Shown here: piece by piece, positions 4,585-36,607 of the stretch
How the letters are laid out: the number at the start of each line of letters is the position of its first letter
How positions within the stretch are numbered: the first letter of the stretch is position 1
Assembly: GCA_018670095.1 (NCBI GenBank)
Contig: JABHRR010000040.1
Span: forward strand, 7,331 to 71,330
Length of the DNA: 64,000 bases
Direction: 5' to 3'
From: Candidatus Woesearchaeota archaeon
GTDB lineage: Archaea; Nanobdellota; Nanobdellia; Woesearchaeales; GW2011-AR9
Made by a program: the position numbers and the translations under genes
Notes under the pieces: model-generated
What the model was told of the DNA's origin: nothing
The model's database searches: none
What the model saw: only the letters and a program-made list of their open reading frames with translations

Positions 4585-4676
4585 TTGTTTTGTCCCTAAG
4601 AGTACATATTATATATTTTGTATACTTATTAATTTCTTATATTTCTTAAATCTTTAGGAGTATATTTGCAATTTTA

Positions 4677-5528: not shown

Positions 5529-5530
5529 CT

Positions 5531-6304
5531 TTAAAAACCCGTTTTACCATAAAGGTACCATTCTTTTGTTTTACCATATATTTCTACAATATCTTTTTCG
5601 GTAAGGTCTTCAGATTTTCCGTCAAAGACAATTTTTCCGTTTCTCATTCCAATAATTCTAGCACCATATCTCTTAGCAAAATCAAGAAAATGTAAGCTAG
5701 CAATAAAAGTAATTCCACTTTCAGTACAAATGGTTTGCAACAAATCCATAATTTCTTTCATCAACTTGGGGTCTAAATTAGAAACGGGTTCGTCAGCAAG
5801 AATAATATCTGGTTTTTGGCATAAAGTCCGGGCGATAGCAACTCTTTGTTTTTGCCCCCCACTAAGATTCAGAACTGTTTCATTCTCATAACCTTGTAAT
5901 CCAACTTTTTCAAGGTTTTCTTGTGCCAAAGTATAATCTTCTTTAGAAAATTTTCCAAGTATTGTTTTAAAAGAACTATTAAAACGTAATCTACCATTTA
6001 AAACATTTTTCAAAACGGTCTCATTTTCAGTGAGATTAAAGTTCTGAAAAATCATCCCAATCTTCCCTCTTATTTTTCCTGCCTTTTTTATCGGACCATT
6101 TAAAATATTATCATTTCCAATAAATATATCTCCAGAGCTGGGTTCTATTAAACGATTAATACACTTTAATAATGTTGATTTTCCTGAACCACTAGATCCA
6201 ATAATGACTGCACTTTCATTTTTCTTAAAATGAAGACTAATATCTTTTAGAGCATCTTCGTTTCTATTATTATACCTGTGAACAAGTTTTTCTATTCTAA
6301 TCAT
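5531..6304 (-). CDS. phnC: phosphonate-type ABC transporter ATP-binding protein
   Basis: Walker A GSSGSGKST, Q-loop IGMIFQ, signature LSGGQKQRVAIAR, Walker B IILADEP. Confidence 0.85.
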   Translation of the reverse strand: MIRIEKLVHRYNNRNEDALKDISLHFKKNESAVIIGSSGSGKSTLLKCINRLIEPSSGDIFIGNDNILNGPIKKAGKIRGKIGMIFQNFNLTENETVLKNVLNGRLRFNSSFKTILGKFSKEDYTLAQENLEKVGLQGYENETVLNLSGGQKQRVAIARTLCQKPDIILADEPVSNLDPKLMKEIMDLLQTICTESGITFIASLHFLDFAKRYGARIIGMRNGKIVFDGKSEDLTEKDIVEIYGKTKEWYLYGKTGF

Positions 6305-6365
6305 TTTAATATTCTCAATATTTAAATTAATGGAAAAAATGGATAATAAAAAATAATAAAAAATC

Positions 6366-7280
6366 TTATTTATTAGCTGCCTCTGGATTAGTAACGTCCA
6401 TTCCTAAAATTTTAGCTGTTTCTCTAATTACGTCATAGTCACTGTCATATACTCTTTTATAACGAGAAATCCCGCCCCAGCCATCAACTTTATGGATGGT
6501 TTGTTGATCCATTTTAACTAACGCCAACTGGATTTTTAATTTAATGAGTTTAGGAAGATCTCCTCTAACAGCAATTGGCGAACCGGGAATAGGATCAGAG
6601 GTATAGATAATCTTGTTTACTTGTGGGTCTATTTCTCCTTCTTTTACCATCCTCTTGTATACATTATCACCAGTTGCTCCTGCATCTACTTTGCCATTTG
6701 CAACAGCATACATAACCGCATTATGAGTCCCAGCATAATAACTCGTACTAAAATCGCTATCTGGATCAATTCCGTTCTCAATTAATATTTTTCGAGGAAT
6801 AAGATTTCCAGAGGTAGAAGCAGGATCTACAAAAGCAAAGGATTTCCCTTTTAAATCTGCCAAAGTATTAATTCCGCTATCGACGTTAGTGACAATTACA
6901 GATTTATAAGTTGAACTTCCAGTTTCATCTTTTACGCCATTAACAATTGCTTCTGCCCCAGCAACATTTGCTGCGATAACATATGAAAACGGACCAAACC
7001 AAGCCATATCAATATGTTTATATCGCATTGCTTCAATAGCAGCAGTATAATCAGAAGTCACTTGAATCTCAACAGGAATCCCTAATTCTTTGGATAAGTA
7101 TTCTTTAATGGGTTCATAATTTCTAAGCATTTCATCAGCATCATCAGCAGGAATTAAACCCATTTTCAAAACTTTAATATCGGAAATTGCTCCTCCAGTT
7201 GGGCTTTGAACACCATTACAACCAGCCAGAAATATAACTAAACACAACAACAAACTTAATATTATTTTTTTCATTTTCAT
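6366..7280 (-). CDS. phnD: phosphonate/phosphite-type ABC substrate-binding lipoprotein
   Basis: Signal peptide with lipobox LAGC. The PhnD-like periplasmic binding fold comes first in the phnD-C-E gene order. Confidence 0.7.
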   Translation of the reverse strand: MKMKKIILSLLLCLVIFLAGCNGVQSPTGGAISDIKVLKMGLIPADDADEMLRNYEPIKEYLSKELGIPVEIQVTSDYTAAIEAMRYKHIDMAWFGPFSYVIAANVAGAEAIVNGVKDETGSSTYKSVIVTNVDSGINTLADLKGKSFAFVDPASTSGNLIPRKILIENGIDPDSDFSTSYYAGTHNAVMYAVANGKVDAGATGDNVYKRMVKEGEIDPQVNKIIYTSDPIPGSPIAVRGDLPKLIKLKIQLALVKMDQQTIHKVDGWGGISRYKRVYDSDYDVIRETAKILGMDVTNPEAANK

Positions 7281-7510: not shown

Positions 7511-10306
7511 ATGGTAAAGATAATTACAACAATAGGGACTAGTTCCATTAAACCAGGAGTATTACATAAACTTAAATCTCATCATGTTGATTTTGTCAGA
7601 ATTAATCTCTCTCATACTAAAGAAAAAGATATTGAAAAAAATATTGAACAGTTAAAAAATTCTAAACTGCCAATCATTATTGATACTGAAGGATCAAAAA
7701 TTAGAACGGGACAATTGAAAGAAGATGTTACCATTCTTGTTAAAGATAAAATTATAAAAGTTTTTAAAGGAGAGATTCCAAATGATTGTGAGGATAATAC
7801 TATCGCAATTAAACCAAAAGAAATTTTGGATTATGTTCGCCCTGGAAATTTGATATCTGTTGATTTTGATTCTGTATTACTAAAAGTAACGGATACTTCC
7901 GCATTAAAAGAAGGTGATTATATTACCTGTCAAGTAATTATTGGAGGCCTAGTTGGAAGCAATAAGTCCGTTCATATTGAAGATTTAAAAATTAAATTGC
8001 CACCTTTTAGCCAAAAAGACTTTTTAGCAATTGAACTTGCCAAAAAACACAAAGTAAAGTTTTTCACATTATCTTTTATTGACCATGGTAGGGAAGTTAA
8101 AGCATTCAAAGAGATATACCCTGAATCATTTGTGTACGCAGAAATCGAAACAAGAGCAGGAATCATAAATTTTGAAAGTATTATTAAAGAAAGTGATGGA
8201 ATTATGGTTGATCGAGGCGATCTCAGTAAAGAAATTTCTCTAGAAAAAATACCCTTAGCACAAAAAATAATTATTAAGAGATGTAATCAAGAAAATAAGG
8301 AGGTATTAATTGCTACTAATATTCTTGAAAGTATGTGTAATTCTCTTAAACCAACCAGAGCAGAAGTAAATGATGTTATCAACACGATTCTAGACGGAGC
8401 TACGGGATTAGTGTTAACAAAAGAAACCGCCATTGGAAACTATCCGTTGGAGACAATAAATATGCTCCATAACCTTATTCAACACGCCAGTTTTGCATTA
8501 AATTCAACAAAAATCAATGAAGCACTTACAGAAAAGAAAGCAAGTAAAACGTTGTTAGAATTAGATTATATCACAAACCCTTACATCACAGATTCATTAA
8601 ATCCTCCTCATGGGGGCAGGTTAGTAAATCAGGTAATGGATGAAAGTGAAATTAAAAAGTACGATTTGCTCACAATGAAAAAATTGGAAGTAAATGAAAC
8701 TACATTAATAGATGCTGAACAAATAGCTATTGGGACTTATAGTCCTTTAGAAGGGTTTATGGTAAAAGAAGATTTCGTCTCCGTTTTAAATAATATGAGA
8801 CTAAAGAACGGCGTCATTTGGCCAGTCCCAATATATTTACAAATAAAAGAGAAAGTGGTGGCAGATTTTTTTCCGAAAGAAAATATCTTATTAATATCAA
8901 AAAAAGATAAGGAAGCGTATGCAATTCTTCATTTAAAAGAGATATACCCACTAAATTTACAAGAGACAGCACTTAAACTTTTTGGAACCACGGACGAAGA
9001 ACATCCCGGGGTGAAAAATTTATTTACACAAGGCAATTTTTTTTTAGGGGGGAAAATAAGTTTAATTAAAAAGTTACCTTCCTCACATAAACACCATGAA
9101 TTAACGCCAAAACAAACCAGAAAGATATTTCAAGAGAAAGGCTGGAAAAGAATTGTTGGTTTTCTTTCTCACAATGCAATCCATCGATCTCATGAGATAA
9201 TCCAATTAGAAGGCATAGAAATGGGTGAATGTGATGGTTTATTTGTCCATCCAATGGTGGGAAAGAAAAAAGAAGGTGACTTTAGAACCGAGATTGTTAT
9301 TAAGAGTTATGAGCTAATGATGGAAAAGTTTTATCCACAAAATGTCATCTTTAGTACGTTTTTGATATACTCTCGCTGGTGCGGTCCCCGAGAAGCAGTT
9401 TTTAGTGCAATATGTAAGAAAAACTTTGGTTGCAGTCATTTTATTGTGGGTAGAGACCACGCTGGAGTTGGTGGCTTCTATGGCCCAAAAGAAGCCCATA
9501 ACATATTTAATAAATTTCCTAATTTGGGGATTGAACCTGTTTGTTTTAATGACATTTTTTATTCAAAAAAAGAAGGAAAGCACATTGAAGATAATCCAGA
9601 AAACAATAAAGAAAACCAAAAAGAGGAAAACAAATCCACAATAAGTGGAACCATTGTAAGAAAAATGTTAAAATCTGGTCAACAACCACCAGCATGGTTA
9701 ATGCGGCCCGAAATTTCTGAAATGATTATCAATTGCATTAATCAAGGAGAAGAAGTATTTTACGAAGAAGATCAGAAAAAGTGTAAAGTCCTCTGGTTTA
9801 CTGGGTTATCTGGATCTGGAAAGACAACTCTAGCTTTAGAACTTAAAAAAAAACTTGAAGAGTTAGGAAAAAAAGTAGAAATTCTTGATGGAGATATTGT
9901 TAGAGGTACGATAAACAAGCACCTAGGTTTTTCAAGAGAAGATATTAGAGAAAATAATAAAATAATGGCAGGATTAGCAAAAGAAAAAATGAAAGATTCT
10001 GATTTTGTTCTTGTTCCAAAAATATCCCCTTACAAAGAAGACAGGGAAAAAACGCAATTTCTTATTGGCGATAACTTCCTGGAATTATTTATTAATGCCC
10101 CCCTACAAGAATGCATAAAAAGAGATGTAAAAGGCCTATATCAAAAAGCCCTTGCTGGAGAAATCAAAGATTTTGTGGGGATTGCCCAATCTAATCCTTA
10201 CGAAGCCCCTGATAATCCCCATTTAGAAATAAAAACTGATCAACAGTCTTTAGAAGAAAGTGTAACAACTATATTAGATTTTTTAAAAAGCCGTCAATTA
10301 TTTTAA
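7511..10306 (+). CDS. tri-domain protein: pyruvate-kinase-like domain + sulfate adenylyltransferase (ATP sulfurylase) + adenylylsulfate kinase
   Basis: Residues 1-330 match the PK barrel (INLSHTKEKD, IIIDTEGSKIRTG, MVDRGDLSKEISLEKIPLAQK, PTRAEVNDVINTILDGATGLVLTKETAIG). The middle region has the HRSHE and GRDHAG motifs of ATP sulfurylase. The C-terminus has GLSGSGKTT, LDGDIVRG and KISPY of APS kinase (CysC). Confidence 0.8.
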   Translation: MVKIITTIGTSSIKPGVLHKLKSHHVDFVRINLSHTKEKDIEKNIEQLKNSKLPIIIDTEGSKIRTGQLKEDVTILVKDKIIKVFKGEIPNDCEDNTIAIKPKEILDYVRPGNLISVDFDSVLLKVTDTSALKEGDYITCQVIIGGLVGSNKSVHIEDLKIKLPPFSQKDFLAIELAKKHKVKFFTLSFIDHGREVKAFKEIYPESFVYAEIETRAGIINFESIIKESDGIMVDRGDLSKEISLEKIPLAQKIIIKRCNQENKEVLIATNILESMCNSLKPTRAEVNDVINTILDGATGLVLTKETAIGNYPLETINMLHNLIQHASFALNSTKINEALTEKKASKTLLELDYITNPYITDSLNPPHGGRLVNQVMDESEIKKYDLLTMKKLEVNETTLIDAEQIAIGTYSPLEGFMVKEDFVSVLNNMRLKNGVIWPVPIYLQIKEKVVADFFPKENILLISKKDKEAYAILHLKEIYPLNLQETALKLFGTTDEEHPGVKNLFTQGNFFLGGKISLIKKLPSSHKHHELTPKQTRKIFQEKGWKRIVGFLSHNAIHRSHEIIQLEGIEMGECDGLFVHPMVGKKKEGDFRTEIVIKSYELMMEKFYPQNVIFSTFLIYSRWCGPREAVFSAICKKNFGCSHFIVGRDHAGVGGFYGPKEAHNIFNKFPNLGIEPVCFNDIFYSKKEGKHIEDNPENNKENQKEENKSTISGTIVRKMLKSGQQPPAWLMRPEISEMIINCINQGEEVFYEEDQKKCKVLWFTGLSGSGKTTLALELKKKLEELGKKVEILDGDIVRGTINKHLGFSREDIRENNKIMAGLAKEKMKDSDFVLVPKISPYKEDREKTQFLIGDNFLELFINAPLQECIKRDVKGLYQKALAGEIKDFVGIAQSNPYEAPDNPHLEIKTDQQSLEESVTTILDFLKSRQLF

Positions 10307-10322: not shown

Positions 10323-11015
10323 ATGGATGATATCAACAAAGAAAAATACCAAAAGAATGGAATTATTGGTGTCTTAACTAGAAAGTTCATTTCAACCAAA
10401 ATTAGTTCTCTTTTAGCTAAAACTCGATTAACTCCAAATCAAATAACATTATTTTCATTAATTATTGGATTAATTGGAATTTATTTCTTGTCTACAGGAG
10501 AACGAACAAATTTAATTGTAGCTGGAATATTAATCTTCTTCTCAAAGATATTTGATGCGGTTGATGGGGAGTTAGCAAGACTTAAAAGAATGGAAACTCC
10601 TCGCGGAGCTTGGATTGACGGAATTTCTGATCGCTTTAAAGAAAATTTAATTTTCTTGGGGGTTGCAATTGCCCTCTATAGACAAACAGGAGATGTTTAT
10701 GTCTGGCTTTATGCTTTCATTGCTGTAATTTCGATACATATGTTATCCATAGTACTAGAACACACAGGAATGATGGATAAAAACGCATTAAAGAATACGC
10801 AAGAAGATTTTTGGATGGTAAGATTTGCGAAAAAGATAGGCATTCGTCCACAATTCCTTGCTTTGCAAGCCGACACTTATTTGTTTATTATTTACGTTAG
10901 TATAATCCTCAACCAATTAATGTTTATTCTCTGGTTTTTTATGGTTGTGATGAATTTATATTGGATAGTAATAGTTATTCTAGTATTTATTAAAAAAGGT
11001 GAAGAAGAAAAATGA
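10323..11015 (+). CDS. CDP-alcohol phosphatidyltransferase family membrane protein
   Basis: Motif DAVDGELARLKRMETPRGAWIDGISDRF fits D-G-x2-A-R-x8-G-x3-D-x3-D. Several TM helices. Its stop overlaps the start of the next gene. Confidence 0.75.
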   Translation: MDDINKEKYQKNGIIGVLTRKFISTKISSLLAKTRLTPNQITLFSLIIGLIGIYFLSTGERTNLIVAGILIFFSKIFDAVDGELARLKRMETPRGAWIDGISDRFKENLIFLGVAIALYRQTGDVYVWLYAFIAVISIHMLSIVLEHTGMMDKNALKNTQEDFWMVRFAKKIGIRPQFLALQADTYLFIIYVSIILNQLMFILWFFMVVMNLYWIVIVILVFIKKGEEEK

Positions 11016-12037
11016 AAATCTATTTTGATGCGGATGTTGAAGAAAGAAAATATGAAGGAAGATCACAAACTTCAATCTTAATGAAAAAGTTTTTAGAAAG
11101 TAAAGGGTTCACTTTCGTAGACCATCCTCGCAAAGCAGATTTAATTCAGTTTCATAGTAGTGGGATATTTGCTTCATTTAGAGCTGCAAAATGGAAAAAA
11201 AAGTACAAAGTGCCTGTAATTTATACGCTATATTCTCTTTCTAAAACAGAGCCATTTAATCACATTAGAAATCATTTTGCACAAAGATATTATTTAAGAA
11301 AACGTAAAACTAGTTTTTTATTGAGTTATTCAGCGATATTACCACTTAAATGGAGAGGATATAATTTAAAAAAGTTAGATTTAATAATTACCCCTTCAAT
11401 TTTTGTTAAAAAAAGATTGTTTGAAAATACGAAACTAATCAGAATTGGAATTGATACAAAAAAATTTAGACCATTGAAAATTAATAAACAAAAAGATGAA
11501 AAAATGAGAGTGGGATATTTTGGCCATCCCAGTGCTTACAAGGGAGTGTTAGATTTTGCTCGAGCTTCAAAGAAATTCTCAAAAGATTATCAAAGTTATA
11601 TCTTCATCTCAGACACTTCTAAGAAAATGTTAAGAAATCTAAAAGAAATTAATCCAAAACTAAATATTTATGGACACACAAAAAATATTACCAAAGCTTA
11701 TAATGACATGGACATTATCGTTTTACCATACAGAAGCCATTTAGCTGGCGTGGCCAACCCTTTAGTTTTAATTGAAGCAATGGCTTGTGGTAAAGCTATT
11801 GTGACAACGAATTTTTCTTATCTTAAAGAAATTGTTAAAGATTCCGCCTTATTAATTAAACCATATTCGCCAAAATCTATTGTCAAAGCGGTTAAAAAAT
11901 TAAAGAATGAAAAGTTAAGAGAATTATTAGGAAAGAAAGCAAAGGAAATTATCGAAAAAGAATATGGTCAAGAGAAAATGTTTAATGAGTATCTGAAAGT
12001 TTATCGGTTCTTTGAGAATAAAATGAATAAAAATTAA
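11012..12037 (+). CDS. glycosyltransferase family 4-like (GT-B)
   Basis: C-terminal ANPLVLIEAMACGKAIVTT; ATGA overlap with the upstream gene. Confidence 0.6.
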   Translation: MKIYFDADVEERKYEGRSQTSILMKKFLESKGFTFVDHPRKADLIQFHSSGIFASFRAAKWKKKYKVPVIYTLYSLSKTEPFNHIRNHFAQRYYLRKRKTSFLLSYSAILPLKWRGYNLKKLDLIITPSIFVKKRLFENTKLIRIGIDTKKFRPLKINKQKDEKMRVGYFGHPSAYKGVLDFARASKKFSKDYQSYIFISDTSKKMLRNLKEINPKLNIYGHTKNITKAYNDMDIIVLPYRSHLAGVANPLVLIEAMACGKAIVTTNFSYLKEIVKDSALLIKPYSPKSIVKAVKKLKNEKLRELLGKKAKEIIEKEYGQEKMFNEYLKVYRFFENKMNKN

Positions 12038-12070: not shown

Positions 12071-13510
12071 ATGCAATTTAAAAATACTCCAGAAAACATC
12101 ATGCAAATCATTGAACTATTTCATAATCAGGGATTAAAATATAATTTGTTCAAATGTGAACATATCTTTGCAGGAAACAATGAGAATTTAGACATTCTTT
12201 TTGCAACTAAAGAAGATTACAATAAAGCATCTTCATTGTTAAAAGAAAATGGTTTCATCATTTATATGTCTGAAAAAGTAGAGAAATATAAAAAGATGTA
12301 TTTAAAACTAAACAATGGAACATTAACAAAAATCCATTTGCATCGAGAAATTGCTTGGAATGGAGTAAAAGTTCTTGATGAAAATAATATTTTTGCAAGA
12401 CAAGTAGAATTAAATAAAATGATTTATTTCCCTTCACCAGAAGATTCCATTCTGATTCACATTGCGCACATTTTATTTGAGAATTTTACGATTGGGCCTA
12501 AAGAAGTTAAATATATCGCTGCATGCTTAATAGAAAAAAATAACAAAAAAGGAAGTGAAATAAATTATAGATATATTAACAAACAATTAAACCAATTTGG
12601 TTGGAAAAAAGAATTCTATTATTTATTTAATAAGTTTAACAAAAATAAAGTGGAAGTTGGAAAAAAGGTTTCTTTTACAATGATTATTAAAAGTTATTTT
12701 AAAGCAATCCTAAAACAACCATTAATAATCCCTCACCTAACCAAAAGAGTAATTAAACTAATTGGAAACAAAATATCATTAAAAAGAAAAGGGACATTAA
12801 TCGCTTTAATTGGAGTTAATGGTTCTGGTAAAACAACGACTACCGAATTATTAAAAGAAGAACTTAAACTGTTAGCAACATTCTTTCATGTTCCCATTGA
12901 GGGATACTACTTTGGATGGCGTCCATTCTCACCAATAGCAAAACTATTATCAAGAATCATGAAGAAGAAGAAAACATTCAAGAAAATCGCTGAACAAGAG
13001 GGTATAACAAAGAAAGAGGAAAAAGAAAATGAGAAGAAGGGAAAGAAATTAAGTATGTTCCAGGAGGGTTTGTTTTTATACAATTTCATGGAATATTTAT
13101 TAAGGTATTGGATTCAAATTTATCCGAAGTTGAGAAAGAGAGAGATAATTATTACTGATAGATACTTTTACGATATTTATGGGCAGTATCCGTATGCTGA
13201 GAAAAGTATACTTATCAAAAATTTAATGAAGTTATTTCCAAAACCTGATAAAACTTTTATTCTTGATGCAGATATTGAAACTATTATGAAAAGAGGGAAA
13301 ACAAATAAAGAATATGAAACTACTAAGACAAAACTAAAAGAAGAAAGAAAAATCAAATCTAAAAATTATTTAGAAGGGCAAAGAAAAAGATATAAAGAAA
13401 TAAACAAAATCATCAAGTCAATTATTATTACTACAGAAGAAGATAAGATAGAAACGACAAGAAAAATTACAAACAAAATTTGGAAACTTAGTGTTAAAAA
13501 AAGTCTTTAA
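12071..13510 (+). CDS. two-domain protein of unknown function: N-terminal conserved domain + thymidylate-kinase-like P-loop kinase domain
   Basis: Walker A GVNGSGKTTT and DRY motif (IIITDRYFYD) in the C-terminal half. The N-terminal 240 aa is a paralog of the N-terminus of the 33692..35041 protein (shared ...DYxKxxxxLxENGF... and ...W.gV..LDE..I...). Confidence 0.5.
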   Translation: MQFKNTPENIMQIIELFHNQGLKYNLFKCEHIFAGNNENLDILFATKEDYNKASSLLKENGFIIYMSEKVEKYKKMYLKLNNGTLTKIHLHREIAWNGVKVLDENNIFARQVELNKMIYFPSPEDSILIHIAHILFENFTIGPKEVKYIAACLIEKNNKKGSEINYRYINKQLNQFGWKKEFYYLFNKFNKNKVEVGKKVSFTMIIKSYFKAILKQPLIIPHLTKRVIKLIGNKISLKRKGTLIALIGVNGSGKTTTTELLKEELKLLATFFHVPIEGYYFGWRPFSPIAKLLSRIMKKKKTFKKIAEQEGITKKEEKENEKKGKKLSMFQEGLFLYNFMEYLLRYWIQIYPKLRKREIIITDRYFYDIYGQYPYAEKSILIKNLMKLFPKPDKTFILDADIETIMKRGKTNKEYETTKTKLKEERKIKSKNYLEGQRKRYKEINKIIKSIIITTEEDKIETTRKITNKIWKLSVKKSL

Positions 13511-13549: not shown

Positions 13550-15142
13550 ATGGAAGCTGTAGATTATTTTTTAAAAAATTGGACTGGAAACAAAAAGATA
13601 GGAGATGTTATGTTAGATGAACTGCTATCTCTTGATGGGGTGCCATTATGGTGGTTTTTTGAAAGAATTTTTGTTTACCATATTTTGCCAAGACAAATTA
13701 ATACGTTTGAAGAAATTGAAAAAAGAGAAAAATTGAGCCCATTCAAGAAAATTAAGCTGAAAGCAAGCGCACAGATAATTAAAAAAATGATTATCAGTAA
13801 TGAAAATAAAAAGTTAAAATACTTTGGAAATAAAAAATTTAAAAGTCCTGATCATAAACCAACTGGTGATCAAAACAAAGTTCTTTTTCTCAGCTACACT
13901 AACCATATTCTTCCAAATGGCGATTTATTTAGAATCCAAAAAATCATTAATGAAGTTAAAGAAAAACATTTCTTAGAGCCTTTTGTCCTTTTTGCTGATA
14001 CGTTGTCTTCTAGAAATTATAAAAAATTAAATGATAAAAATACTATTTACCAATATTCTGATAATGATATAAATAAAAAAGCAAAAACTTTTTCTAATGA
14101 CATGTATGAGAAATGGAAAAGTATTTCCGATAGCAAAAAAGAAGAATTATTGACCAAAGGCGATTTATCTTATTGGCCATATTTGAAGCATGCATTTGAA
14201 GTATTTTATTCCAAAGAGTTCTTAGAGTTATTATATATTTATTACGAAAGTGCAAAAAAAACAATAATCTCAGAAAAAATTAAAGTAGTAGTCTTAACTT
14301 CACAAAATGGCATCTTTGATAAGTGTATCATTGCTGCTGCTCAAGAATTAAATGTACCTGTATTAAGGCTTCAACATGGAATTGGAGAATGTTTAATTCC
14401 TTATCATCCTTTTGACAAATATTATAAATTAATTTTTAGTGAAGAAGTTAAAAGAAATTTAATGAATGTGGGTTGGCCTGAAGAACAATTAATCATTACC
14501 GGCCCAATAATATTTGATGAGATTAACAATTATATTCTTCCAAAAAAAAATAAAGAGAAGAATATTTTTATTGCTACTGCGCCCCTTATTACAGAAAGTG
14601 GAGGGGGAAAAAAGTATTATCAAAAAATAGAGAGTATTATGAAAGATATTAAAAAGATAAAAAATGTAAAAGTAATCCTCAAGGTCCATCCCGCGGAGCA
14701 CCCCATAGAGAAAACGATTAAGAAATATCGAAACTGTGCCAGAAAAGTTGACCTAAGGGTAAAAATTTATGGGACTGATATATCAAGAAAAGAATTTTAT
14801 CAATTATTTCAATGGTGTGATGTCTTCGTAAACTTTGGTTCCACCACTGCACTTGAAGCGATGATTATTGGGAGACCGGCAGTAACAATAAAAGCGATAG
14901 ATTTCCCAGCAATGTATAATTGGATGGAAGAAAATAAGATTGCGCCAGTTATTGAATATAGAAATAATAAAGAAGAGCATGAAGAACTAGTCTCTGCGAT
15001 TAAAAAATCGTTAGAAGGAAATTCAGAGTTTGTTGAGAATATTAAAGAATTTATTAAGAAAAAGTGTGGAATCATTGAGGGTAATGCATATAAAAAAACT
15101 TCCGTGATCATAAAACAATTCTACAAAGAACAAGAAAAATAA
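13550..15142 (+). CDS. GT-B-like transferase with HP motif (TagF/KpsS/sialyltransferase-like; CDP-alcohol or CMP-sugar dependent), putative
   Basis: KVHPAEHP motif followed by DVFVNFGSTTALEAMIIGRPAV, which resembles TagF/Capsule_synth/bacterial sialyltransferase families. Paralogous to the N-terminal half of the 24656..26788 protein. Confidence 0.35.
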   Translation: MEAVDYFLKNWTGNKKIGDVMLDELLSLDGVPLWWFFERIFVYHILPRQINTFEEIEKREKLSPFKKIKLKASAQIIKKMIISNENKKLKYFGNKKFKSPDHKPTGDQNKVLFLSYTNHILPNGDLFRIQKIINEVKEKHFLEPFVLFADTLSSRNYKKLNDKNTIYQYSDNDINKKAKTFSNDMYEKWKSISDSKKEELLTKGDLSYWPYLKHAFEVFYSKEFLELLYIYYESAKKTIISEKIKVVVLTSQNGIFDKCIIAAAQELNVPVLRLQHGIGECLIPYHPFDKYYKLIFSEEVKRNLMNVGWPEEQLIITGPIIFDEINNYILPKKNKEKNIFIATAPLITESGGGKKYYQKIESIMKDIKKIKNVKVILKVHPAEHPIEKTIKKYRNCARKVDLRVKIYGTDISRKEFYQLFQWCDVFVNFGSTTALEAMIIGRPAVTIKAIDFPAMYNWMEENKIAPVIEYRNNKEEHEELVSAIKKSLEGNSEFVENIKEFIKKKCGIIEGNAYKKTSVIIKQFYKEQEK

Positions 15143-17506: not shown

Positions 17507-19123
17507 TCACTCATCCCCTTTATTAAAAAACTCTTTAATGGAAGAGGAAATGTATCTTAAATCTTCCTCATTTAATGTCACTGACATAGGTAAAGTTAAT
17601 ACTCTTCCAGACAATTCTTCTGTTAGCGGCAGATCCCCTTCTTTAAAACCATAGTTTCTTTTGTACAAAGTTTTTAAGTGTACCGGATTAAAATAAACCT
17701 TGCTCATAATCCCTTTACTCTCCAAGAAAAATTGAAGTTGGTCCCTTACTTGTTTATTAGGTAAAGTTATAGTGTACATTTGATAAATATGATTAAAACC
17801 AACCAAAGGCAAAGGACACTTTACCCCAGGGGTCATAGACAATTCTCGATTTAAAAAAGTAGCTTTCTTTTTCCTCTCATTAATCATAAAGTTTATTTTT
17901 CTCAATTGAGAAAGCCCTAATGCGGCATTCATTGTTGGCATTCTAAAATTAAAACCAACTTTTAAATAATCACAATCTTTAATAGAAGAGAAATAATCCC
18001 CCTCCACTTCCTCTATTCTTCCTAAAGAACGTAACAATTTCATTCTTTCATATAATTTTGGATTCTCAGTAACAATAACTCCCCCCTCACCACAGGAAAT
18101 AATTTTATTCTGACAAAAACTAAACATAGCAGCAGTACCAAATGTCCCAACTTTTTTCCCATTAACATCTGCCCCTAAAGATTCAGCGGCATCGTCTAAT
18201 AATAAAAGATTATTATCATTACAAAGGCGTGCTAACTTCTCAATATCACGACAAGCACAACCACCATAATGGATAGGTATAACTGCTTTTGTTTTAGAGG
18301 TTATTTTTTTTCTAACATCTTCTGCATCTAATCCAAAAGTCTCTGATTCGCATTCTGCAAAAACTGGGATACCTCCCGCAAGAATAACTGCGTTAGCAGT
18401 AGCAATAAATGTAAACGAAGGAACAATCACTTCTTTCCCTTTTACATCACAAGCTAAAAGAAGCGTGTGTAATGCTGAAGTTCCAGAATTAAAAGTTAAA
18501 GCATATTTTGTCCCCACAAATTTAGCAAGTTCATATTCAAACTCTTGGATTTCTGGCCCTACAGCCCAATTAGTTCCTCTTTTAATAACCTTAGCTATTG
18601 CTTCAATATCATCTTTGTCGGAATATGTTTTAAAAAATGGCATTTTCCATTTTTTAGTTTCACTAATTGGGTCACTAGAACTTAGTATCTTGTCAACTTC
18701 ATATTCTTCACCCACTCGCCTCTCATCAAGACATTTAATTACTTTAGCCGGAATACCATAAGCAACAACATTATCAGGAAGATCTTTGTTAACGAAAGAA
18801 TGAGCCCCAATAGTTGTGTTCTCCCCTATTGTAACATTGGGCATGATAGTACAATGAGTGCCTACACAAGCATTTTTTTTAATAATTACTTTTCCTTTTT
18901 TATTATCGATAGTAGAAACTGAGTAAATGGAACAATGACTACCAATCTGAACATTATCACCAATTTCAACGTATTCTTTAGCATTGATATAAGTAAATGC
19001 ACCAATATCAACAGATTGTCCCAATGATAATTTATCAGGATGTTGAACTAACCAATTCCACTTTGTAAGTTTATTATGTTCAATTATTGGAGTCTCCCAA
19101 TTTTCAAAACGTTCTTTTTCCAT
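17507..19123 (-). CDS. fusion: left-handed beta-helix (hexapeptide) N-acetyltransferase + DegT/DnrJ/EryC1 PLP aminotransferase
   Basis: N-terminal hexapeptide repeats (IGDNVQIGSHCSIY, IGENTTIGAHSFV). C-terminal DegT fold with the PLP-lysine motif MFSFCQNKIISCGEGG. Confidence 0.75.
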   Translation of the reverse strand: MEKERFENWETPIIEHNKLTKWNWLVQHPDKLSLGQSVDIGAFTYINAKEYVEIGDNVQIGSHCSIYSVSTIDNKKGKVIIKKNACVGTHCTIMPNVTIGENTTIGAHSFVNKDLPDNVVAYGIPAKVIKCLDERRVGEEYEVDKILSSSDPISETKKWKMPFFKTYSDKDDIEAIAKVIKRGTNWAVGPEIQEFEYELAKFVGTKYALTFNSGTSALHTLLLACDVKGKEVIVPSFTFIATANAVILAGGIPVFAECESETFGLDAEDVRKKITSKTKAVIPIHYGGCACRDIEKLARLCNDNNLLLLDDAAESLGADVNGKKVGTFGTAAMFSFCQNKIISCGEGGVIVTENPKLYERMKLLRSLGRIEEVEGDYFSSIKDCDYLKVGFNFRMPTMNAALGLSQLRKINFMINERKKKATFLNRELSMTPGVKCPLPLVGFNHIYQMYTITLPNKQVRDQLQFFLESKGIMSKVYFNPVHLKTLYKRNYGFKEGDLPLTEELSGRVLTLPMSVTLNEEDLRYISSSIKEFFNKGDE

Positions 19124-31994: not shown

Positions 31995-33392
31995 TTACAA
32001 ATTATTACTTTTTTTCTCCATTAAATATAATGTCCTACATGAACTATTTATTTTCTTTTTCTCAACTATTGTAAAAAACTCATTAAACTCTTTTTCGAAG
32101 TGATCAATGTAATACTCAGTAAAAATATCTTTTCGAGAAGACAACAATTTTTTAACTTGAGAGTCTTCTTTTGGAACAAATTCAATAATTAAATATTTAC
32201 AAGCCTTTGAGAAAAAATGAGCTATTTTACTTAAAGGAACATTATTTGAAATTGCTAAATGATGGATTAATGCTAATGCAAAAACCAGATCCACTGGACC
32301 ACGATTAATAAGAGAATTTCTTTCATCACAACCCCAACCAAGATTAGGACTAGGGTTGGTCAAATCCAATAATAGAGGTAATTGATAACCGTTCTTATTA
32401 TTTTTTTGGCGCAAATAATTTCTTTCAACACAAGAAAAATCAACATCAAAAGCAATAGTTGTGATCTTGTTATCTGAGGTGATATCACTAAAAAACCCAT
32501 CATTTGCACCCAGGTCCCAAACCATTTTAGGGCTAACTTTTTTAACAAACTCTTTAACTAATTCTTTTTTGTGTAAAAGGGAAACATCATCATAATTACA
32601 ATTCCCAGAATAGTAAGTATCCCATTCGGTATTTCGTTTTGCTTTTGGTAGATTCTTAATTGCTTTTTCCAAACTATTAATAATACCTTTAAATTGTAAT
32701 TCCCCAAAGGAATTTTTTCCTTTTTCTTTTTGAATATTTTTATCAGAATATCTTTTAAGTGCTTTTGAATGTAAACTAAGATGAAAAATAATACCTGCTT
32801 TAAATTTAGATTTAGTTGGAAGTAAAGAATTTGCCAAATCTAAAGGAATCCCATCAATATATGATCTTAACAAAGTATTTAATCTATCATCTCGATACGA
32901 CATTAGTGCTAAAGGGGCAAGGAAATGTTGACAAAATTGTTTATAACCCTCCCAGGGTTTTCCTGGGACATATTTCTCAAAAGATAAGGTATCAATAAAA
33001 ATAGGATTAGACCCGATAAATTGAATATTATAGGCACTAGCATCTTTAATTACCATGCCATAATCTAATGATTTTTTTAGAATTTTTAAAGTAAGAAGAG
33101 CAGCATCTTTAAGTTGACTAAAGCTCCACTCATATGGATAAGAAACAAAAGGGATAATTTCAGGTTGAATTATTTTATATCCAAAATCATCTTCAAATGA
33201 GAATTTATCAACTTCTTGGTGTGAAACTAAAAGATTTAATTTTACCAAATTATTGTAAAGTCCAGAATTCATTAATAATTCATAATTATCTTTATAACTT
33301 TTATTTATTTGACGATAAAGAACTTCACTTTCAAAAAAAAGAAATCCGTTAGGGTCACGAAACGAACCAGAAACTTTAGAAATATTATCCAT
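31995..33392 (-). CDS. two-domain protein: N-terminal kinase-like (PKL-fold?) domain + C-terminal class I SAM-dependent methyltransferase
   Basis: C-terminus has MVWDLGANDGFFS (motif I) and a downstream acidic/hydrophobic motif. N-terminus has IKDASAYNIQF and IFIDTLSF, reminiscent of a phosphotransferase catalytic loop and DFG-like loop. The N-domain call is weak. Confidence 0.4.
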   Translation of the reverse strand: MDNISKVSGSFRDPNGFLFFESEVLYRQINKSYKDNYELLMNSGLYNNLVKLNLLVSHQEVDKFSFEDDFGYKIIQPEIIPFVSYPYEWSFSQLKDAALLTLKILKKSLDYGMVIKDASAYNIQFIGSNPIFIDTLSFEKYVPGKPWEGYKQFCQHFLAPLALMSYRDDRLNTLLRSYIDGIPLDLANSLLPTKSKFKAGIIFHLSLHSKALKRYSDKNIQKEKGKNSFGELQFKGIINSLEKAIKNLPKAKRNTEWDTYYSGNCNYDDVSLLHKKELVKEFVKKVSPKMVWDLGANDGFFSDITSDNKITTIAFDVDFSCVERNYLRQKNNKNGYQLPLLLDLTNPSPNLGWGCDERNSLINRGPVDLVFALALIHHLAISNNVPLSKIAHFFSKACKYLIIEFVPKEDSQVKKLLSSRKDIFTEYYIDHFEKEFNEFFTIVEKKKINSSCRTLYLMEKKSNNL

Positions 33393-33691: not shown

Positions 33692-35041
33692 TTACCACCA
33701 ATTTCGCATTAAATAACTGGAGATATGGTTAATAATGATGTCTCTATTTTTCTCTTTATTCAATGTTTTTATCTTTAAATCATAATTAAACTTGTTAAAA
33801 ATGGCCATTTGTCGATCTAACTCAGAAACAGATTCTTCTGGCCTTCTCTCATGAAGGGTCTGAGCAGAATTGTATAAGTAAATAGAAATTGTTGGCTTTG
33901 GGAATAAGCCAAGTAATATCCTTTTAAACCAAAAAGGAACATTTTCCATTAAAATTATATCAGAACAATAACGATCTGTAATTACTATATTCTTATTAAA
34001 CCTTTTTGGAAAAATTCTGAACCAGTATCGTAAAAATAGGTCTAAACTGAAAACTGGAGCCGCTAAAGTGTATAATATCTTTCTTTTAATTTTTCCATTC
34101 AAACTTTTTTTATTTGTATTATTAGGATTACTTTTAGCAATTTCAGAAACTAATGTTTTAGGATCTGGCCGAATTCCGTCATTTATTTTTTCTGCACGTT
34201 TGTATTTTCTTCCAATTAAACTAATAGGAAGAATATGATCTCTCCCTCTTCCAGTATAAACTAAAGAGGTGTTTTTTCCCGAATCTCTGAGAAAAACATT
34301 TAGATGATTGACAAGAGTAGACTTTCCTGAACCATCTGGGCCAATAACACTAATTAAAGGTGCAATATTAAAAGGGTTCTTTCTTTGTTTCACCCAGCGA
34401 AAGAATAAAGCAATAAATATAGTTAAATGGTTCGGTTTTTTTAAAAGAAAGTAAGTAACTAAGTTTTTTGTTTTGATTTTATCAAACTGGTTATTTCTTA
34501 CTAAACAAATTAATTCTTTTGCGACTTTCTTATTAAAAATATTAGAAAGATGGTCATAAATATATTTATTATTCACACTATTAATTAATTCTAATAAAAT
34601 TCTTTGATATTTTTGTTTAAAGAATCTTTTTCCTAAGATTGAATGAACCAAAAGCATTACAAAAGTATTGTCATTGTTTGGGACATTAAAAAATTCTTTT
34701 TTGAGTCTATTTCCAAGAATTATCTTCTCATCCAAATAACAAATATCATTCCAATGAACCCCTCCAACCTGAATATCAAAACTAACTTTTTTAAGATTAA
34801 TTAATTTAAAAAAAGCTTTGTGTTTTAATGAGAATTGTTGTGTTCTCTCTTCGAAACCATTCTCAATTAGAATTTTTCTCATCTTTTCATAATCTTTTTT
34901 AGAAACAACAGTATCCAAACTTTCAATATCGCTTGGTTTTCCCCCATTTAACAAAAATTCATAATTTCTTAGAATACAATAAGAAATACTTTCTCCTTCA
35001 AATTCTTTTAGTACAGTTTTGATAAATTCTATTCGTTCCAT
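33692..35041 (-). CDS. two-domain protein of unknown function: N-terminal conserved domain + thymidylate-kinase-like P-loop kinase domain (paralog of the 12071..13510 protein)
   Basis: Walker A GPDGSGKST and DRY (IVITDRYCSD) motifs. The N-domain aligns with the 12071 protein and has an SDIESLD acidic cluster suggesting a Pol-beta/LicD-like nucleotidyltransferase fold. Confidence 0.5.
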   Translation of the reverse strand: MERIEFIKTVLKEFEGESISYCILRNYEFLLNGGKPSDIESLDTVVSKKDYEKMRKILIENGFEERTQQFSLKHKAFFKLINLKKVSFDIQVGGVHWNDICYLDEKIILGNRLKKEFFNVPNNDNTFVMLLVHSILGKRFFKQKYQRILLELINSVNNKYIYDHLSNIFNKKVAKELICLVRNNQFDKIKTKNLVTYFLLKKPNHLTIFIALFFRWVKQRKNPFNIAPLISVIGPDGSGKSTLVNHLNVFLRDSGKNTSLVYTGRGRDHILPISLIGRKYKRAEKINDGIRPDPKTLVSEIAKSNPNNTNKKSLNGKIKRKILYTLAAPVFSLDLFLRYWFRIFPKRFNKNIVITDRYCSDIILMENVPFWFKRILLGLFPKPTISIYLYNSAQTLHERRPEESVSELDRQMAIFNKFNYDLKIKTLNKEKNRDIIINHISSYLMRNWW

Positions 35042-35122: not shown

Positions 35123-36607
35123 TTATTTTCTAACTAACTTGGAGTAATATTTTATTTCATCTAAATTTAGTAAACCAAAAGTGTAAGCTAAAAATAAATA
35201 AACTAATCCGGCAATAATCAAACCAACAATCATTTCAAACCAAATATTAAAGCTAAAAAAACTTTTTATTATAGCTAAAGTGATTAAAAACCCGAATGTA
35301 GGAAAAATTAATGTAACCCATTCTTTTAAAGGTAATTTAAGGGTTACCTGTTTCTTAGTCTGATAAGTGGATAATAATAACATCATTAAATAACTTAAGG
35401 TCGTAGATATCGCAGCACCATTAATGCTTAACAAAGGGATCAAAATTATATTTAAGACTACGTTCAATGAAGCAGTAGACAAAATAATTGCCATCACTAT
35501 TTTTGGTTTTCCAATACCTGAAATAAAATTATTATTTACTGAGGCTAAAACATAAAAAGAAACACCAATTAAAAGAATCTTAAATGCGGTGACCCCAGAA
35601 ACATATTCTAATCCAAACAATTTTACAATCAGAACATCTGTATAAACATAAATGATTAAGAAAAAAGGGATTATAGTTACAAAAGTATACTTATATAACA
35701 ATGTTAAACCTTTACTTAGCTTTGTTTGATCCTTTTTTGCCCATAATTCTGAGGATAAAGGAAAAAGTACTGCAGAGATGGCTTTACTAAAAAATAAAAA
35801 GATTAAAGCTGATGGTAAAATGGCATTATAAACTCCTACTTCTGACAAAGTTCCAAAATAAGTTAAGATTATTGTGTCTATATAACCAATAAGTTTCCCC
35901 CCAATTGAGGTTGCGAATACTGGTATTCCAAACAAAAAAAGTTTTTTGGATATTTTCTTTAAATGTACTACTTTATAACTAAAAAAATTAAATTTTCTAA
36001 ACAAAAAAGGAGCATAAATCAGAAAAAGAAGAGGACAAACTAAAGCATAGGCATATACGGGTGCAAAACTTTTTTGACCAAAATAAAAGAATATTAAAAT
36101 TAAAACCAAAACAATTAGATTTTTCATTAACTCCATAGAGGAGAAAAAAAACATTTCTTGAAAACCCTGAAATATTTGTTTGACAATTATAAAAAAAACA
36201 CTAAAGATAACATAAAAGACTAATATTCTTAAAATTAAAGATGCTTGTGGATTTTTAAAATAATATTGTGCCAAAAAACTTGAAGAAAAAATAAATATAA
36301 GAACAAAAATTATTGAACTAAATAATTGAATTGAGAAAACAGAAACAATTGCTGTTTTTATCTCATTAAACTGATTATTTACTTTAAACTCTGCCATATA
36401 CTTAACTAACGCCTGGCCTAATCCTAAGTCTCTAAAAAAAAGGAATAAAATAATAAAAGTGAAAACTGAATAAAATAATCCATATTCTTCAACAGAAAGA
36501 TTTCTTGCTAAAACTAAACGAGTAACATAAGCAACAACTGCAGCAAGAATGCTCATGATTAAAGTTATTCCTGCACCTCTAACGGCTCTCTTAGTATAAT
36601 TAACCAT
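35123..36607 (-). CDS. wzx: Wzx-type oligosaccharide flippase (polysaccharide biosynthesis protein, PST family)
   Basis: 494 aa, 12-14 TM, with a Wzx-like N-terminus. Confidence 0.65.
   Translation of the reverse strand: MVNYTKRAVRGAGITLIMSILAAVVAYVTRLVLARNLSVEEYGLFYSVFTFIILFLFFRDLGLGQALVKYMAEFKVNNQFNEIKTAIVSVFSIQLFSSIIFVLIFIFSSSFLAQYYFKNPQASLILRILVFYVIFSVFFIIVKQIFQGFQEMFFFSSMELMKNLIVLVLILIFFYFGQKSFAPVYAYALVCPLLFLIYAPFLFRKFNFFSYKVVHLKKISKKLFLFGIPVFATSIGGKLIGYIDTIILTYFGTLSEVGVYNAILPSALIFLFFSKAISAVLFPLSSELWAKKDQTKLSKGLTLLYKYTFVTIIPFFLIIYVYTDVLIVKLFGLEYVSGVTAFKILLIGVSFYVLASVNNNFISGIGKPKIVMAIILSTASLNVVLNIILIPLLSINGAAISTTLSYLMMLLLSTYQTKKQVTLKLPLKEWVTLIFPTFGFLITLAIIKSFFSFNIWFEMIVGLIIAGLVYLFLAYTFGLLNLDEIKYYSKLVRK

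What the first reader, a model, noticed from the sequence alone, without database searches (positions are those of the whole stretch)
12071..13510. Paralogous pair of two-domain proteins (unknown N-domain + thymidylate-kinase-like P-loop/DRY kinase) inside the glycan island
The 12071..13510 and 33692..35041 proteins share an architecture. Each has an N-terminal domain of about 230 aa with the conserved blocks DYxKxxxxLxENGF and W.GV..LDE; the 33692 copy keeps an SDIESLD acidic cluster suggesting a Pol-beta/LicD-like nucleotidyltransferase fold. Each then has a C-terminal P-loop kinase with GxxGSGKTT/ST and a DRY motif, as in dTMP kinase. A Tmk-like kinase fused to an NTase-like or LicD-like domain in a polysaccharide locus is not a described glycan enzyme type. 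Possible roles are phosphorylating a sugar or polyprenol, or generating and transferring a phospho-substituent. One copy lies next to the TagF-like gene and the other next to a Wzx flippase.
Basis: partly seen in the sequence, partly recalled or inferred. Interest (0 to 1): 0.58.

Follow-up and report, generated by a model that had tools for sequence, protein, structure and literature searches.

The report
Kinase–nucleotidyltransferase fusion pair in glycan locus
Two related genes in this DPANN archaeal sugar-coat locus each fuse a nucleotidyltransferase-like domain to a thymidylate-kinase-like domain; they belong to a large, uncharacterised enzyme family found in polysaccharide gene clusters of archaea and bacteria.

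Summary
ORF A (12071-13510, +, 479 aa) and ORF B (33692-35041, -, 449 aa) are true paralogues. Each has an N-terminal Pol-beta-type nucleotidyltransferase-fold domain (Pfam PF14907) and a C-terminal thymidylate-kinase-fold P-loop kinase.

They are not ordinary dTMP kinases and not LicD. Neither is a one-off. A and B are two old subfamilies kept together in Woesearchaeota/Nanoarchaeota glycan loci. A sits in a conserved cassette: CDP-alcohol phosphotransferase or methyltransferase, then GT4, then A, then a ~520-aa GT-B protein. B usually sits next to the Wzx flippase.

The wider family has at least 2,865 sequence clusters and is also found in bacterial Wzx/Wzy polysaccharide loci. About 30% of top members carry a third, APH/choline-kinase-like domain, and two are fused to a Wzx-type flippase.

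Most members keep the canonical D-x-D...D nucleotidyltransferase triad. A has N-x-D...H-x-H and B has S/G-x-D...D. The kinase catalytic residues are invariant in both.

No member is characterised. My best guess (about 0.4) is an ATP-dependent enzyme that installs a phosphate or phosphodiester-linked substituent on the lipid-linked glycan before flipping.

The parts
12071..13510 (+). ORF A, 479 aa: PF14907-type NTase-fold domain plus Tmk-fold kinase (Woesearchaeal 'A' subfamily)
   Evidence: (AF2 pLDDT 92.5, pTM 0.89)
12071..12775 (+). A N-domain (residues 1-235): NTase-fold core followed by a helical subdomain and linker helices
   Evidence: PF14907 at 39.7 bits when scanned alone. The AF2 secondary-structure order a-b-a-b-a-b-b fits a Pol-beta-type core.
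12185..12193 (+). A residues N39-L40-D41, at the position of the NTase D-x-D motif; the first Asp is replaced by Asn
   Evidence: N39 and D41 are each present in 119 of 119 homologues
12335..12343 (+). A residues H89-L90-H91, at the position of the third NTase carboxylate; part of an invariant His/Cys/Glu cluster (K28, C29, H31, H89, H91, H130, H133, E137)
12812..12838 (+). A P-loop G248-VNGSGKT-T256 (Asn where Tmk has Asp/Glu)
13157..13174 (+). A motif D363-R-Y-F-Y-D368 (family hallmark DRYxxD)
   Evidence: D363, R364 and D368 are each 119 of 119. Solved Tmks have Ser/Thr at the +5 position (alignments).
33692..35041 (-). ORF B, 449 aa: same architecture ('B' subfamily, closer to the family-wide consensus)
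   Evidence: (AF2 pLDDT 93.8, pTM 0.89)
34913..34921 (-). B residues S41-L42-D43, at the position of the NTase D-x-D motif
   Evidence: Position 41 is S in 91 and G in 28 of 120; D43 is 118 of 120
34769..34777 (-). B residues D89-I90-Q91 (third NTase carboxylate retained)
   Evidence: D89 and Q91 are each 120 of 120
34316..34342 (-). B P-loop G234-PDGSGKS-T242
33959..33976 (-). B motif D356-R-Y-C-S-D361 (DRYxxD)
10323..11015 (+). CDP-alcohol phosphotransferase (AIPS/DIPPS-like), first gene of the conserved A cassette
11012..12037 (+). GT4 glycosyltransferase immediately upstream of A; this position is conserved
13550..15142 (+). 530-aa GT-B-type protein immediately downstream of A; distantly related to the BFO_1060/Tanf_01245 nonulosonic-acid transferase family
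   Evidence: A homologue is present in 37 of 56 A loci.
35123..36607 (-). Wzx-type (Polysacc_synt) flippase immediately upstream of B
31995..33392 (-). 465-aa protein with no Pfam or NCBIfam hit, immediately downstream of B

Best explanation
A and B are two specialised paralogues of a large, uncharacterised family of bifunctional glycan-locus enzymes. Each has an N-terminal PF14907 nucleotidyltransferase-fold domain and a C-terminal Tmk-fold P-loop kinase.

I propose that they work at the cytoplasmic face of the membrane on the lipid-linked glycan, or on a unit just before it is added. The kinase domain would use ATP to phosphorylate the substrate, either at a hydroxyl or at an existing phosphate. 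The N-domain would bind a nucleotide-containing co-substrate. In canonical family members it would then transfer a group onto, or from, that phosphate. The product would be a phosphate or phosphodiester-linked substituent added before Wzx flips the glycan.

In this lineage, A works with the GT4 and the putative nonulosonic-acid transferase of its cassette, and B works with Wzx.

Shown here: the architecture, an intact kinase catalytic set, the remodelled NTase sites, the conserved synteny, and the fusions to an APH-like kinase and to Wzx.

Inferred: the substrate, the order of the steps, and whether the N-domains of A and B are catalytic at all.
For: Kinase fold and catalytic residues. Both AF2 models have pLDDT above 92, and their 50 best PDB matches are all thymidylate kinases. 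The P-loop Lys/Thr, the DR of the DRY motif and the LID Arg are invariant in A, in B and across the family.

N-domain. PF14907 is above its cutoff in A and is found in 38 of 61 N-domains. Of 137 family representatives, 94 keep the D-D-D triad, so the ancestral N-domain looks like an active NTase.

Glycan context. The cassette GT4 - A - 520-aa GT-B is seen in most of 56 Woesearchaeal loci, close to an AglJ-like GT2 and to STT3/AglB. B is adjacent or nearly adjacent to Wzx in 8 of 17 loci. Bacterial homologues lie inside Wzx/Wzy EPS loci with Wza, Wzz, Wzy, Bac_transf and GT4 genes.

Gene fusions. P0469 is Polysacc_synt_3 (Wzx) plus N-K. L102 is a MOP flippase plus a PK-like domain plus N-K. Forty-one of 137 representatives are N-K-APH-like, and an APH-like gene is adjacent in eight further loci.

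Precedent. In a lasso-peptide cluster the kinase PsmK phosphorylates a Ser, and PsmN, an 'uncharacterised nucleotidyltransferase' that needs its D-x-D, is required for a hexose to be put on that phosphate (PMC6993621). A PEP-mutase gene neighbourhood is flanked by a thymidylate kinase and a PF14907 gene.
Against: No member has been characterised, so the chemistry is inferred only from domain families and context. A and B both lack the first Asp of the NTase triad, which was essential in PsmN, so their N-domains may be non-catalytic or may do something different. I did not verify that PsmN belongs to PF14907. The APH-like partner that is common in bacteria was not found in the window or in any Woesearchaeal locus. 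No phosphate-bearing glycan is known from these organisms.
Confidence: 0.4

Rival explanations
1. Precursor activation (salvage type). The kinase, together with the APH-like kinase where one is present, phosphorylates a free sugar or alcohol. The NTase domain then joins it to a nucleotide to give an NDP-X or CDP-X donor. The adjacent GT4, the CDP-alcohol phosphotransferase or the GT-B enzyme uses that donor. This is the logic of FKP, HldE, AmgK/MurU and LicA/LicC.
For: Kinase plus nucleotidyltransferase is the standard logic of sugar salvage (established knowledge). The gene overlaps or abuts a GT4 in nearly all loci. CDP-alcohol phosphotransferase is the first gene of the cassette in many loci. 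APH-family enzymes include anomeric sugar kinases and choline kinases (established knowledge); L071 gives a weak Choline_kinase hit. DPANN archaea depend on salvage.
Against: Known sugar-1-phosphate and alcohol-phosphate nucleotidyltransferases do not use the Pol-beta fold. A and B lack the full metal triad. Fusion to a membrane flippase is hard to explain for an enzyme that makes a soluble precursor. In about ten loci the CDP-alcohol phosphotransferase is replaced by a methyltransferase, yet A stays.
Confidence: 0.2
2. Local nucleotide recycling. The Tmk-like domain is a true NMP kinase, for example for CMP released by the CDP-alcohol phosphotransferase and by CMP-nonulosonate transferases, or for UMP released by phosphoglycosyl transferases. 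The NTase-like domain is a nucleotide-binding, regulatory or scaffold pseudo-enzyme.
For: The fold is specifically Tmk. Both cassette neighbours of A are of kinds that release CMP (the reaction chemistry is established knowledge). Two loci carry an extra cytidylate-kinase-like gene in the same cassette. The NTase triad is degenerate in A and B.
Against: The N-domain of A has about 20 invariant polar residues, which is far more than a scaffold needs. Most family members keep a canonical NTase triad. The kinase differs from Tmk at substrate-side positions: the Glu of the Tmk FEG motif is absent, Ser/Thr is replaced by an invariant Asp in DRYxxD, and A has Asn in the P-loop. A Cmk gene beside A would be redundant. 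Recycling does not explain the fusions to APH-like domains and to Wzx.
Confidence: 0.15
3. Housekeeping dTMP kinase with an N-terminal extension, which is how JGI names it ('thymidylate kinase').
For: PF02223 is above its cutoff in A. JGI assigns the name 'thymidylate kinase'. The genes are conserved across Woesearchaeal genomes.
Against: The scores against the dTMP-kinase equivalog model TIGR00041 are 43.3 and 13.1 bits against a cutoff of 83.25. There are two paralogues, and both are fixed in glycan-locus synteny. Bacterial members are plasmid-borne in EPS loci of organisms that are expected to have their own tmk (that tmk is essential is established knowledge). Residues on the dTMP side are changed. 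I could not check whether these archaea carry a separate canonical tmk.
Confidence: 0.03
4. A regulatory or conflict-system protein, for example a kinase/ATPase that controls export or polymerisation, or a defence or toxin module that happens to lie in a variable glycan island.
For: P-loop plus NTase combinations occur in conflict systems (established knowledge). Neighbouring GT4s give PF20706 'GT4-conflict' hits. The fusion to Wzx could reflect regulation of the flippase.
Against: PADLOC gives only weak P-loop-level hits. Synteny with biosynthetic GTs is stable across 56 species-level genomes, unlike a mobile defence island. GT4-conflict hits overlap ordinary GT4 models. No toxin/antitoxin partner is present.
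Confidence: 0.05

Closest known systems
Thymidylate (dTMP) kinase, Pfam PF02223 / TIGR00041 (e.g. PDB 2plr Sulfolobus tokodaii ST1543, 4s35 Aquifex aeolicus)
   Same: The fold is the same: the top 50 Foldseek PDB hits for both models are Tmks, with target-normalised TM-scores of about 0.65-0.74. The P-loop GxxGxGK[ST]T, the DRY motif and the LID arginines are shared.
   Different: The proteins score below the equivalog cutoff. They carry a 220-235-aa N-terminal NTase-fold domain and a 50-60-residue poorly ordered basic insert after strand 2. The Glu of the Tmk FEG motif is absent. An invariant Asp replaces Ser/Thr five residues after the DRY Asp. A has Asn instead of the P-loop Asp. The genes sit in glycan loci.
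PF14907 NTP_transf_5 'uncharacterised nucleotidyltransferase' (Pol-beta superfamily)
   Same: This is the only family the N-domain matches. A is above the cutoff, and 38 of 61 N-domains hit it. The conserved His of the helical subdomain (H133) is shared.
   Different: Only the C-terminal part of the model (positions 97-240 of 249) is matched. A and B lack the first Asp of the triad. The domain is fused to a kinase. PF14907 itself has no assigned function.
PsmK/PsmN of the pseudomycoidin lasso-peptide cluster (PMC6993621)
   Same: A P-loop kinase is paired with an 'uncharacterised nucleotidyltransferase'. The kinase phosphorylates a hydroxyl, sometimes repeatedly, and the NTase-fold protein is needed to put a hexose on that phosphate. 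This is the only experimental precedent for such a pair.
   Different: The proteins are separate. The kinase is HprK-like rather than Tmk-like. The substrate is a peptide. PsmN needs its D-x-D, which A and B lack. I did not test whether PsmN belongs to PF14907.
LicA / LicC / LicD phosphocholine decoration pathway and LicD/fukutin-type phosphotransferases
   Same: The module has a similar make-up: an APH/choline-kinase-fold kinase and an NTase-fold transferase that add a phosphodiester-linked substituent to a glycan from a CDP-activated donor, releasing CMP.
   Different: No LicD (PF04991) hit was found. There is no fused cytidylyltransferase. A Tmk-like domain is not part of Lic pathways. The resemblance is one of logic and was not shown by homology.
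Bifunctional kinase/nucleotidyltransferases of sugar activation (Bacteroides FKP, HldE, AmgK-MurU)
   Same: A kinase and a nucleotidyltransferase occur in one protein or operon, inside or feeding glycan pathways.
   Different: Those enzymes use GHMP, PfkB or APH kinases and Rossmann-like or HIGH-motif nucleotidyltransferases. None combines a Tmk fold with a Pol-beta fold.

Membership tests
dTMP kinase (TIGR00041 equivalog / PF02223) | Score above the curated cutoff | tested here: not met
   Against TIGR00041, A scores 43.3 and B 13.1 bits (cutoff 83.25). Against PF02223, A scores 46.5 (cutoff 27, met) and B 13.7 (not met). The domain family is met for A only; the equivalog is met for neither.
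dTMP kinase (TIGR00041 equivalog / PF02223) | Tmk three-dimensional fold | tested here: met
   For both AF2 models the 50 best Foldseek PDB matches are all Tmks, with E about 4e-7 to 2e-5.
dTMP kinase (TIGR00041 equivalog / PF02223) | Phosphotransfer residues: P-loop Lys and Ser/Thr, DRY Asp-Arg, LID Arg | tested here: met
   These residues are invariant in 119 A-type and 120 B-type sequences and across the 44-sequence family alignment.
dTMP kinase (TIGR00041 equivalog / PF02223) | Residues on the dTMP side: FEG Glu, P-loop Asp/Glu, Ser/Thr after DRY | tested here: not met
   A reads LIG-VNG and B reads VIG-PDG, against FEG-IDG in 2plr and 2pbr. Both have DRYxxD where the solved Tmks have DRYIYT or DRFVLS.
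dTMP kinase (TIGR00041 equivalog / PF02223) | dTMP to dTDP activity | not testable with these tools
   Needs an enzyme assay or complementation.
PF14907 NTP_transf_5 (Pol-beta-type nucleotidyltransferase) | Score above the Pfam gathering cutoff | tested here: met
   A scores 37.5 bits as the full protein and 39.7 bits as the N-domain alone (cutoff 31.2). B scores 17.1 bits, below the cutoff, but is homologous to A along its whole length.
PF14907 NTP_transf_5 (Pol-beta-type nucleotidyltransferase) | Catalytic carboxylate triad [DE]-x-[DE] ... [DE] | tested here: not met
   A has N39-x-D41 ... H89. B has S/G41-x-D43 ... D89. The triad is D-D-D in 94 of 137 family representatives and in the acidobacterial subfamily.
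PF14907 NTP_transf_5 (Pol-beta-type nucleotidyltransferase) | Pol-beta NTase fold confirmed by structure comparison | tested here: inconclusive
LicD family phosphotransferase (PF04991) | Profile match to LicD | tested here: not met
   No LicD hit at E <= 1 for A, for B or for 61 N-domains.
Known anti-phage defence systems (PADLOC-DB) | Match to a defence-system protein model | tested here: not met
   Only weak hits at the level of the P-loop were found, with the best E at 1.5e-5.

The most novel reading that the evidence does not exclude
The N-K(-APH) family is an undescribed class of glycan-tailoring machinery. It builds phosphodiester- or pyrophosphate-linked decorations directly on the lipid-linked repeat unit by successive ATP-driven phosphorylations and a Pol-beta-fold transfer step, physically coupled to Wzx. 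In Woesearchaeota the duplicated A copy has turned the nucleotidyltransferase pocket into a new His/Cys/Glu (probably metal-binding) catalytic centre with a different chemistry.
Probability: 0.2. Interest if true: 0.8.

Novelty: new variant of a known kind. Interest (0 to 1): 0.55.

Why it matters
If the proposed role is right, thousands of polysaccharide, capsule and N-glycan loci in soil Acidobacteriota, Alphaproteobacteria and DPANN archaea encode an unrecognised tailoring step that is currently mislabelled 'thymidylate kinase' or 'hypothetical protein'.

Knowing its product would improve prediction of glycan structure from sequence. It would give PF14907 a function. It would also say something about how host-dependent DPANN archaea build their surface glycans.

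Cultured carriers exist (Leisingera spp. and Agrobacterium leguminum AT13 plasmid p1), so the question is directly testable by genetics.

Tried and rejected

2. PDB sequence and profile searches with N-domain profiles, both Woesearchaeal (A3) and canonical-triad (A6). Nothing significant was found.

3. A phosphonate link. The window has a PhnCDE-like importer (4677-7280), and a paper notes PEP mutase flanked by a thymidylate kinase and a PF14907 gene. However, Phn homologues are not among the genes that recur near A in 56 loci, and no supplement was available to identify that gene cluster family. I dropped this as a general explanation.

4. An APH-like partner in the window. An HMM built from bacterial partners found none in the window or in the Woesearchaeal loci.

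5. A Cmk gene as a constant cassette member. The extra roughly 250-aa gene is Cmk-like in only two loci (L002, L004) and is a methyltransferase in about ten.

6. Defence-system membership, LicD membership and housekeeping Tmk. All were rejected or judged unlikely.

7. NCBIfam naming of the APH-like partner and of the bacterial homologues. No model matched.
Full report
**Observation**

ORF A (12071-13510, +, 479 aa) and ORF B (33692-35041, -, 449 aa) are present as described.

- They align over about 400 residues at 26% identity (E 9e-14), covering both halves.
- Alignments of 114 A-type and 118 B-type homologues match each other with hhalign probability 99.9% (E 1.5e-32, 409 columns).
- Pfam assigns A to PF14907 NTP_transf_5 (residues 40-185; 37.5 bits, cutoff 31.2) and PF02223 Thymidylate_kin (248-461; 46.5 bits, cutoff 27). 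B hits the same two families below cutoff.

The window is about 30% G+C. The relatives of A and B that carry an organism name come from Woesearchaeota/Nanoarchaeota (DPANN) metagenome-assembled genomes.

**Structure and residues**

AlphaFold2 models are confident: A has pLDDT 92.5 and pTM 0.89, and B has 93.8 and 0.89.

- For both models the 50 best Foldseek PDB matches are all thymidylate kinases. The best PDB sequence match is the Sulfolobus tokodaii Tmk 2plr.
- The phosphotransfer residues (P-loop Lys and Thr/Ser, DRY Asp-Arg, LID Arg) are invariant.
- Neither protein reaches the dTMP-kinase equivalog cutoff: 43.3 and 13.1 bits against 83.25.
- They differ from solved Tmks on the acceptor side. 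The Glu of the FEG motif is absent. A has Asn for the P-loop Asp. Both have an invariant Asp five residues after the DRY Asp (DRYxxD), where Tmks have Ser/Thr.
- A poorly ordered, Lys-rich insert follows strand 2 (pLDDT 53-67).

The N-domain has the secondary-structure order of a Pol-beta-type nucleotidyltransferase core followed by helices. PF14907 is the only family it matches, in 38 of 61 N-domains. No PDB sequence hit was obtained.

At the three canonical carboxylate positions:

| Copy | Position 1 | Position 2 | Position 3 |
|---|---|---|---|
| A | N39 (119/119) | D41 (119/119) | H89 (119/119), within H89-x-H91 |
| B | S or G41 (119/120) | D43 (118/120) | D89 (120/120) |

A also has an invariant K28, C29, H31, E68, E71, K74, R92, H130, H133, E137 set. 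This looks like a remodelled active or metal-binding site rather than a decayed one.

**Context in Woesearchaeota**

I fetched 56 species-level loci for A. ORFs were matched to the window's proteins.

- The gene order is [CDP-alcohol phosphotransferase, or in about ten loci a ~250-aa methyltransferase] - [GT4 of ~340-370 aa] - [A] - [~520-aa GT-B protein]. The last gene was recognised in 37 of 56 loci.
- The cassette lies beside an AglJ-like GT2, a DUF2304 protein, two more GT4s and, in L002, STT3/AglB.
- The C-terminal half of the ~520-aa protein weakly matches NF046086 (BFO_1060 family) and TIGR04396. BFO_1060 is the orthologue of Tanf_01245, the proposed pseudaminic/legionaminic-acid transferase of Tannerella forsythia (PMC5420450). 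The window also encodes NeuB, a PseB-like enzyme, DegT and a CMP-sugar synthetase.
- B-type genes are adjacent to A in five loci and share the locus in 11 of 56.
- B is next to, or two small ORFs from, Wzx in 8 of 17 B loci, counting the window.

**The wider family**

A metagenome scan with the B profile found full-length relatives at 21-26% identity on contigs of 33-61% G+C, again among GT4, Wzx and PseB-like genes.

- A profile of these relatives retrieved 621 proteins. One is named as from a Candidatus Acidiferrales bacterium, and some are on contigs up to 2.7 Mb.
- Their neighbourhoods are classical Wzx/Wzy loci with Wza, Wzz, Bac_transf, Wzy and GT4 genes.
- Homologues annotated 'hypothetical protein' lie in EPS loci on plasmids of cultured Leisingera spp. 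and Agrobacterium leguminum.
- An exhaustive profile search gives 2,865 cluster representatives at E <= 1e-30 and 9,519 at E <= 1e-10.
- Among 137 new top representatives, 92 are N-K and 41 are N-K plus an APH/choline-kinase-like domain. One (P0469) is a Polysacc_synt_3 flippase fused to N-K.
- Contig L102 encodes a MOP flippase, a PK-like domain and N-K in one 1,246-aa ORF.
- A separate APH-like gene is adjacent or nearby in eight further loci. None was found in the Woesearchaeal loci.
- Ninety-four of the 137 representatives keep the D-D-D triad. Ten have the A pattern (N-D-H) and six the B pattern. The acidobacterial subfamily conserves SDLDxAV and the third Asp at 90% or more.
- B is therefore the local orthologue of the general family, and A is a derived paralogue specific to this archaeal lineage.

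**Interpretation**

The kinase is almost certainly active. The family-level N-domain looks like an active nucleotidyltransferase. The gene is fixed inside glycan assembly operons and is recurrently fused to a second small-molecule kinase fold and to the lipid-linked-oligosaccharide flippase.

The only experimental parallel I found is PsmK/PsmN. There a kinase phosphorylates a Ser, and an 'uncharacterised nucleotidyltransferase' that requires its D-x-D is needed for a hexose to be put on that phosphate (PMC6993621). A PEP-mutase neighbourhood with a thymidylate kinase plus a PF14907 gene has also been noted.

I therefore favour, at about 0.4, an enzyme that installs a phosphate or phosphodiester-linked substituent on the lipid-linked glycan before flipping. 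The rivals are:

- salvage-type synthesis of an activated donor (0.2);
- CMP/UMP recycling with a pseudo-enzyme N-domain (0.15);
- a regulatory or defence role (0.05), for which PADLOC gives only P-loop-level hits;
- a housekeeping Tmk (0.03).

Because A and B lack the first triad Asp, their N-domains may bind rather than transfer. In A the N-domain may do new chemistry. This is inference.

**Novelty and score**

The domains are known kinds. The fusion, its family and its role are not described: there is no NCBIfam model, no solved homologue of the N-domain, and PF14907 appears in only one paper in the searchable library.

I rate it a new variant of a known kind, with interest 0.55.

Noticed in passing
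window 7511-10306 (+): A 931-aa fusion of a pyruvate-kinase barrel domain, a PUA-like domain, ATP sulfurylase and APS kinase (a PAPS synthase with an unusual PK-barrel N-terminus). It lies 3.6 kb from a sulfotransferase (3058-3879), which suggests a sulfated glycan. Homologues occur in 5 of 56 related loci.
   Followed up: partly
window 3880-7280 (-): A PhnD/PhnC/PhnE-like 'phosphonate' ABC importer lies next to a 234-aa NTP_transferase whose matches include the inositol-1-phosphate cytidylyltransferase half of IPCT/DIPPS. It sits just upstream of the glycan cassette. The importer is not conserved near A in other genomes.
   Followed up: partly
window 19991-22039 (-) and 17507-19123 (-): Two unusual fusions occur in the nonulosonic-acid pathway: CMP-sugar synthetase (CTP_transf_3) fused to a class-III aminotransferase (682 aa), and a hexapeptide acyltransferase fused to a DegT aminotransferase (538 aa).
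   Followed up: no
window 24656-26788 (+): A 710-aa protein has no Pfam hit, but its C-terminal 320 residues match a FemAB-family model (TIGR04421, 71.5 bits, below cutoff). It may be an aminoacyl or peptidyl transferase acting on a sugar.
   Followed up: no
window 31995-33392 (-): A 465-aa protein next to B has no Pfam or NCBIfam hit. By eye its C-terminal part resembles a class I SAM-methyltransferase. The gene at the same position in L003 is different: 500 aa with a weak transglutaminase-core hit.
   Followed up: partly
window 12182-12184 and 12359-12361 (A residues 38 and 97): The window's own A copy departs from its family at two otherwise highly conserved positions near the remodelled site. 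It has E38 where 103 of 119 have Lys, and N97 where 118 of 119 have His.
   Followed up: no
L068 5346-7375, L075 9902-11955, L084 853-2922, L095 9021-11077: In one bacterial subgroup the fused kinase domain has a decayed P-loop and DRY motif. It is followed by a separate 181-199-aa stand-alone copy of the kinase domain with intact motifs, and then often by the APH-like gene.
   Followed up: partly
L002 8303-9004, L004 6638-7336: A cytidylate-kinase-like gene of 232-233 aa is inserted between the CDP-alcohol phosphotransferase and the GT4 of the A cassette in two Woesearchaeal loci.
   Followed up: partly
L005, L006, L011 and about 25 other loci: Many GTDB records carrying this Woesearchaeal-type cassette are titled 'uncultured Methanosarcinales archaeon'. 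The 56 loci, including these, share the synteny of the Woesearchaeota/Nanoarchaeota MAGs, so the titles look like placeholder or wrong taxonomy.
   Followed up: no
L114 7152-17893, L115 1-10035: In two acidobacterial genomes the family member sits between NRPS-like genes (AMP-binding/PP-binding/thioesterase, condensation domains, a P450) and GT4/Wzy genes. This suggests an acylated or peptide-decorated polysaccharide.
   Followed up: no
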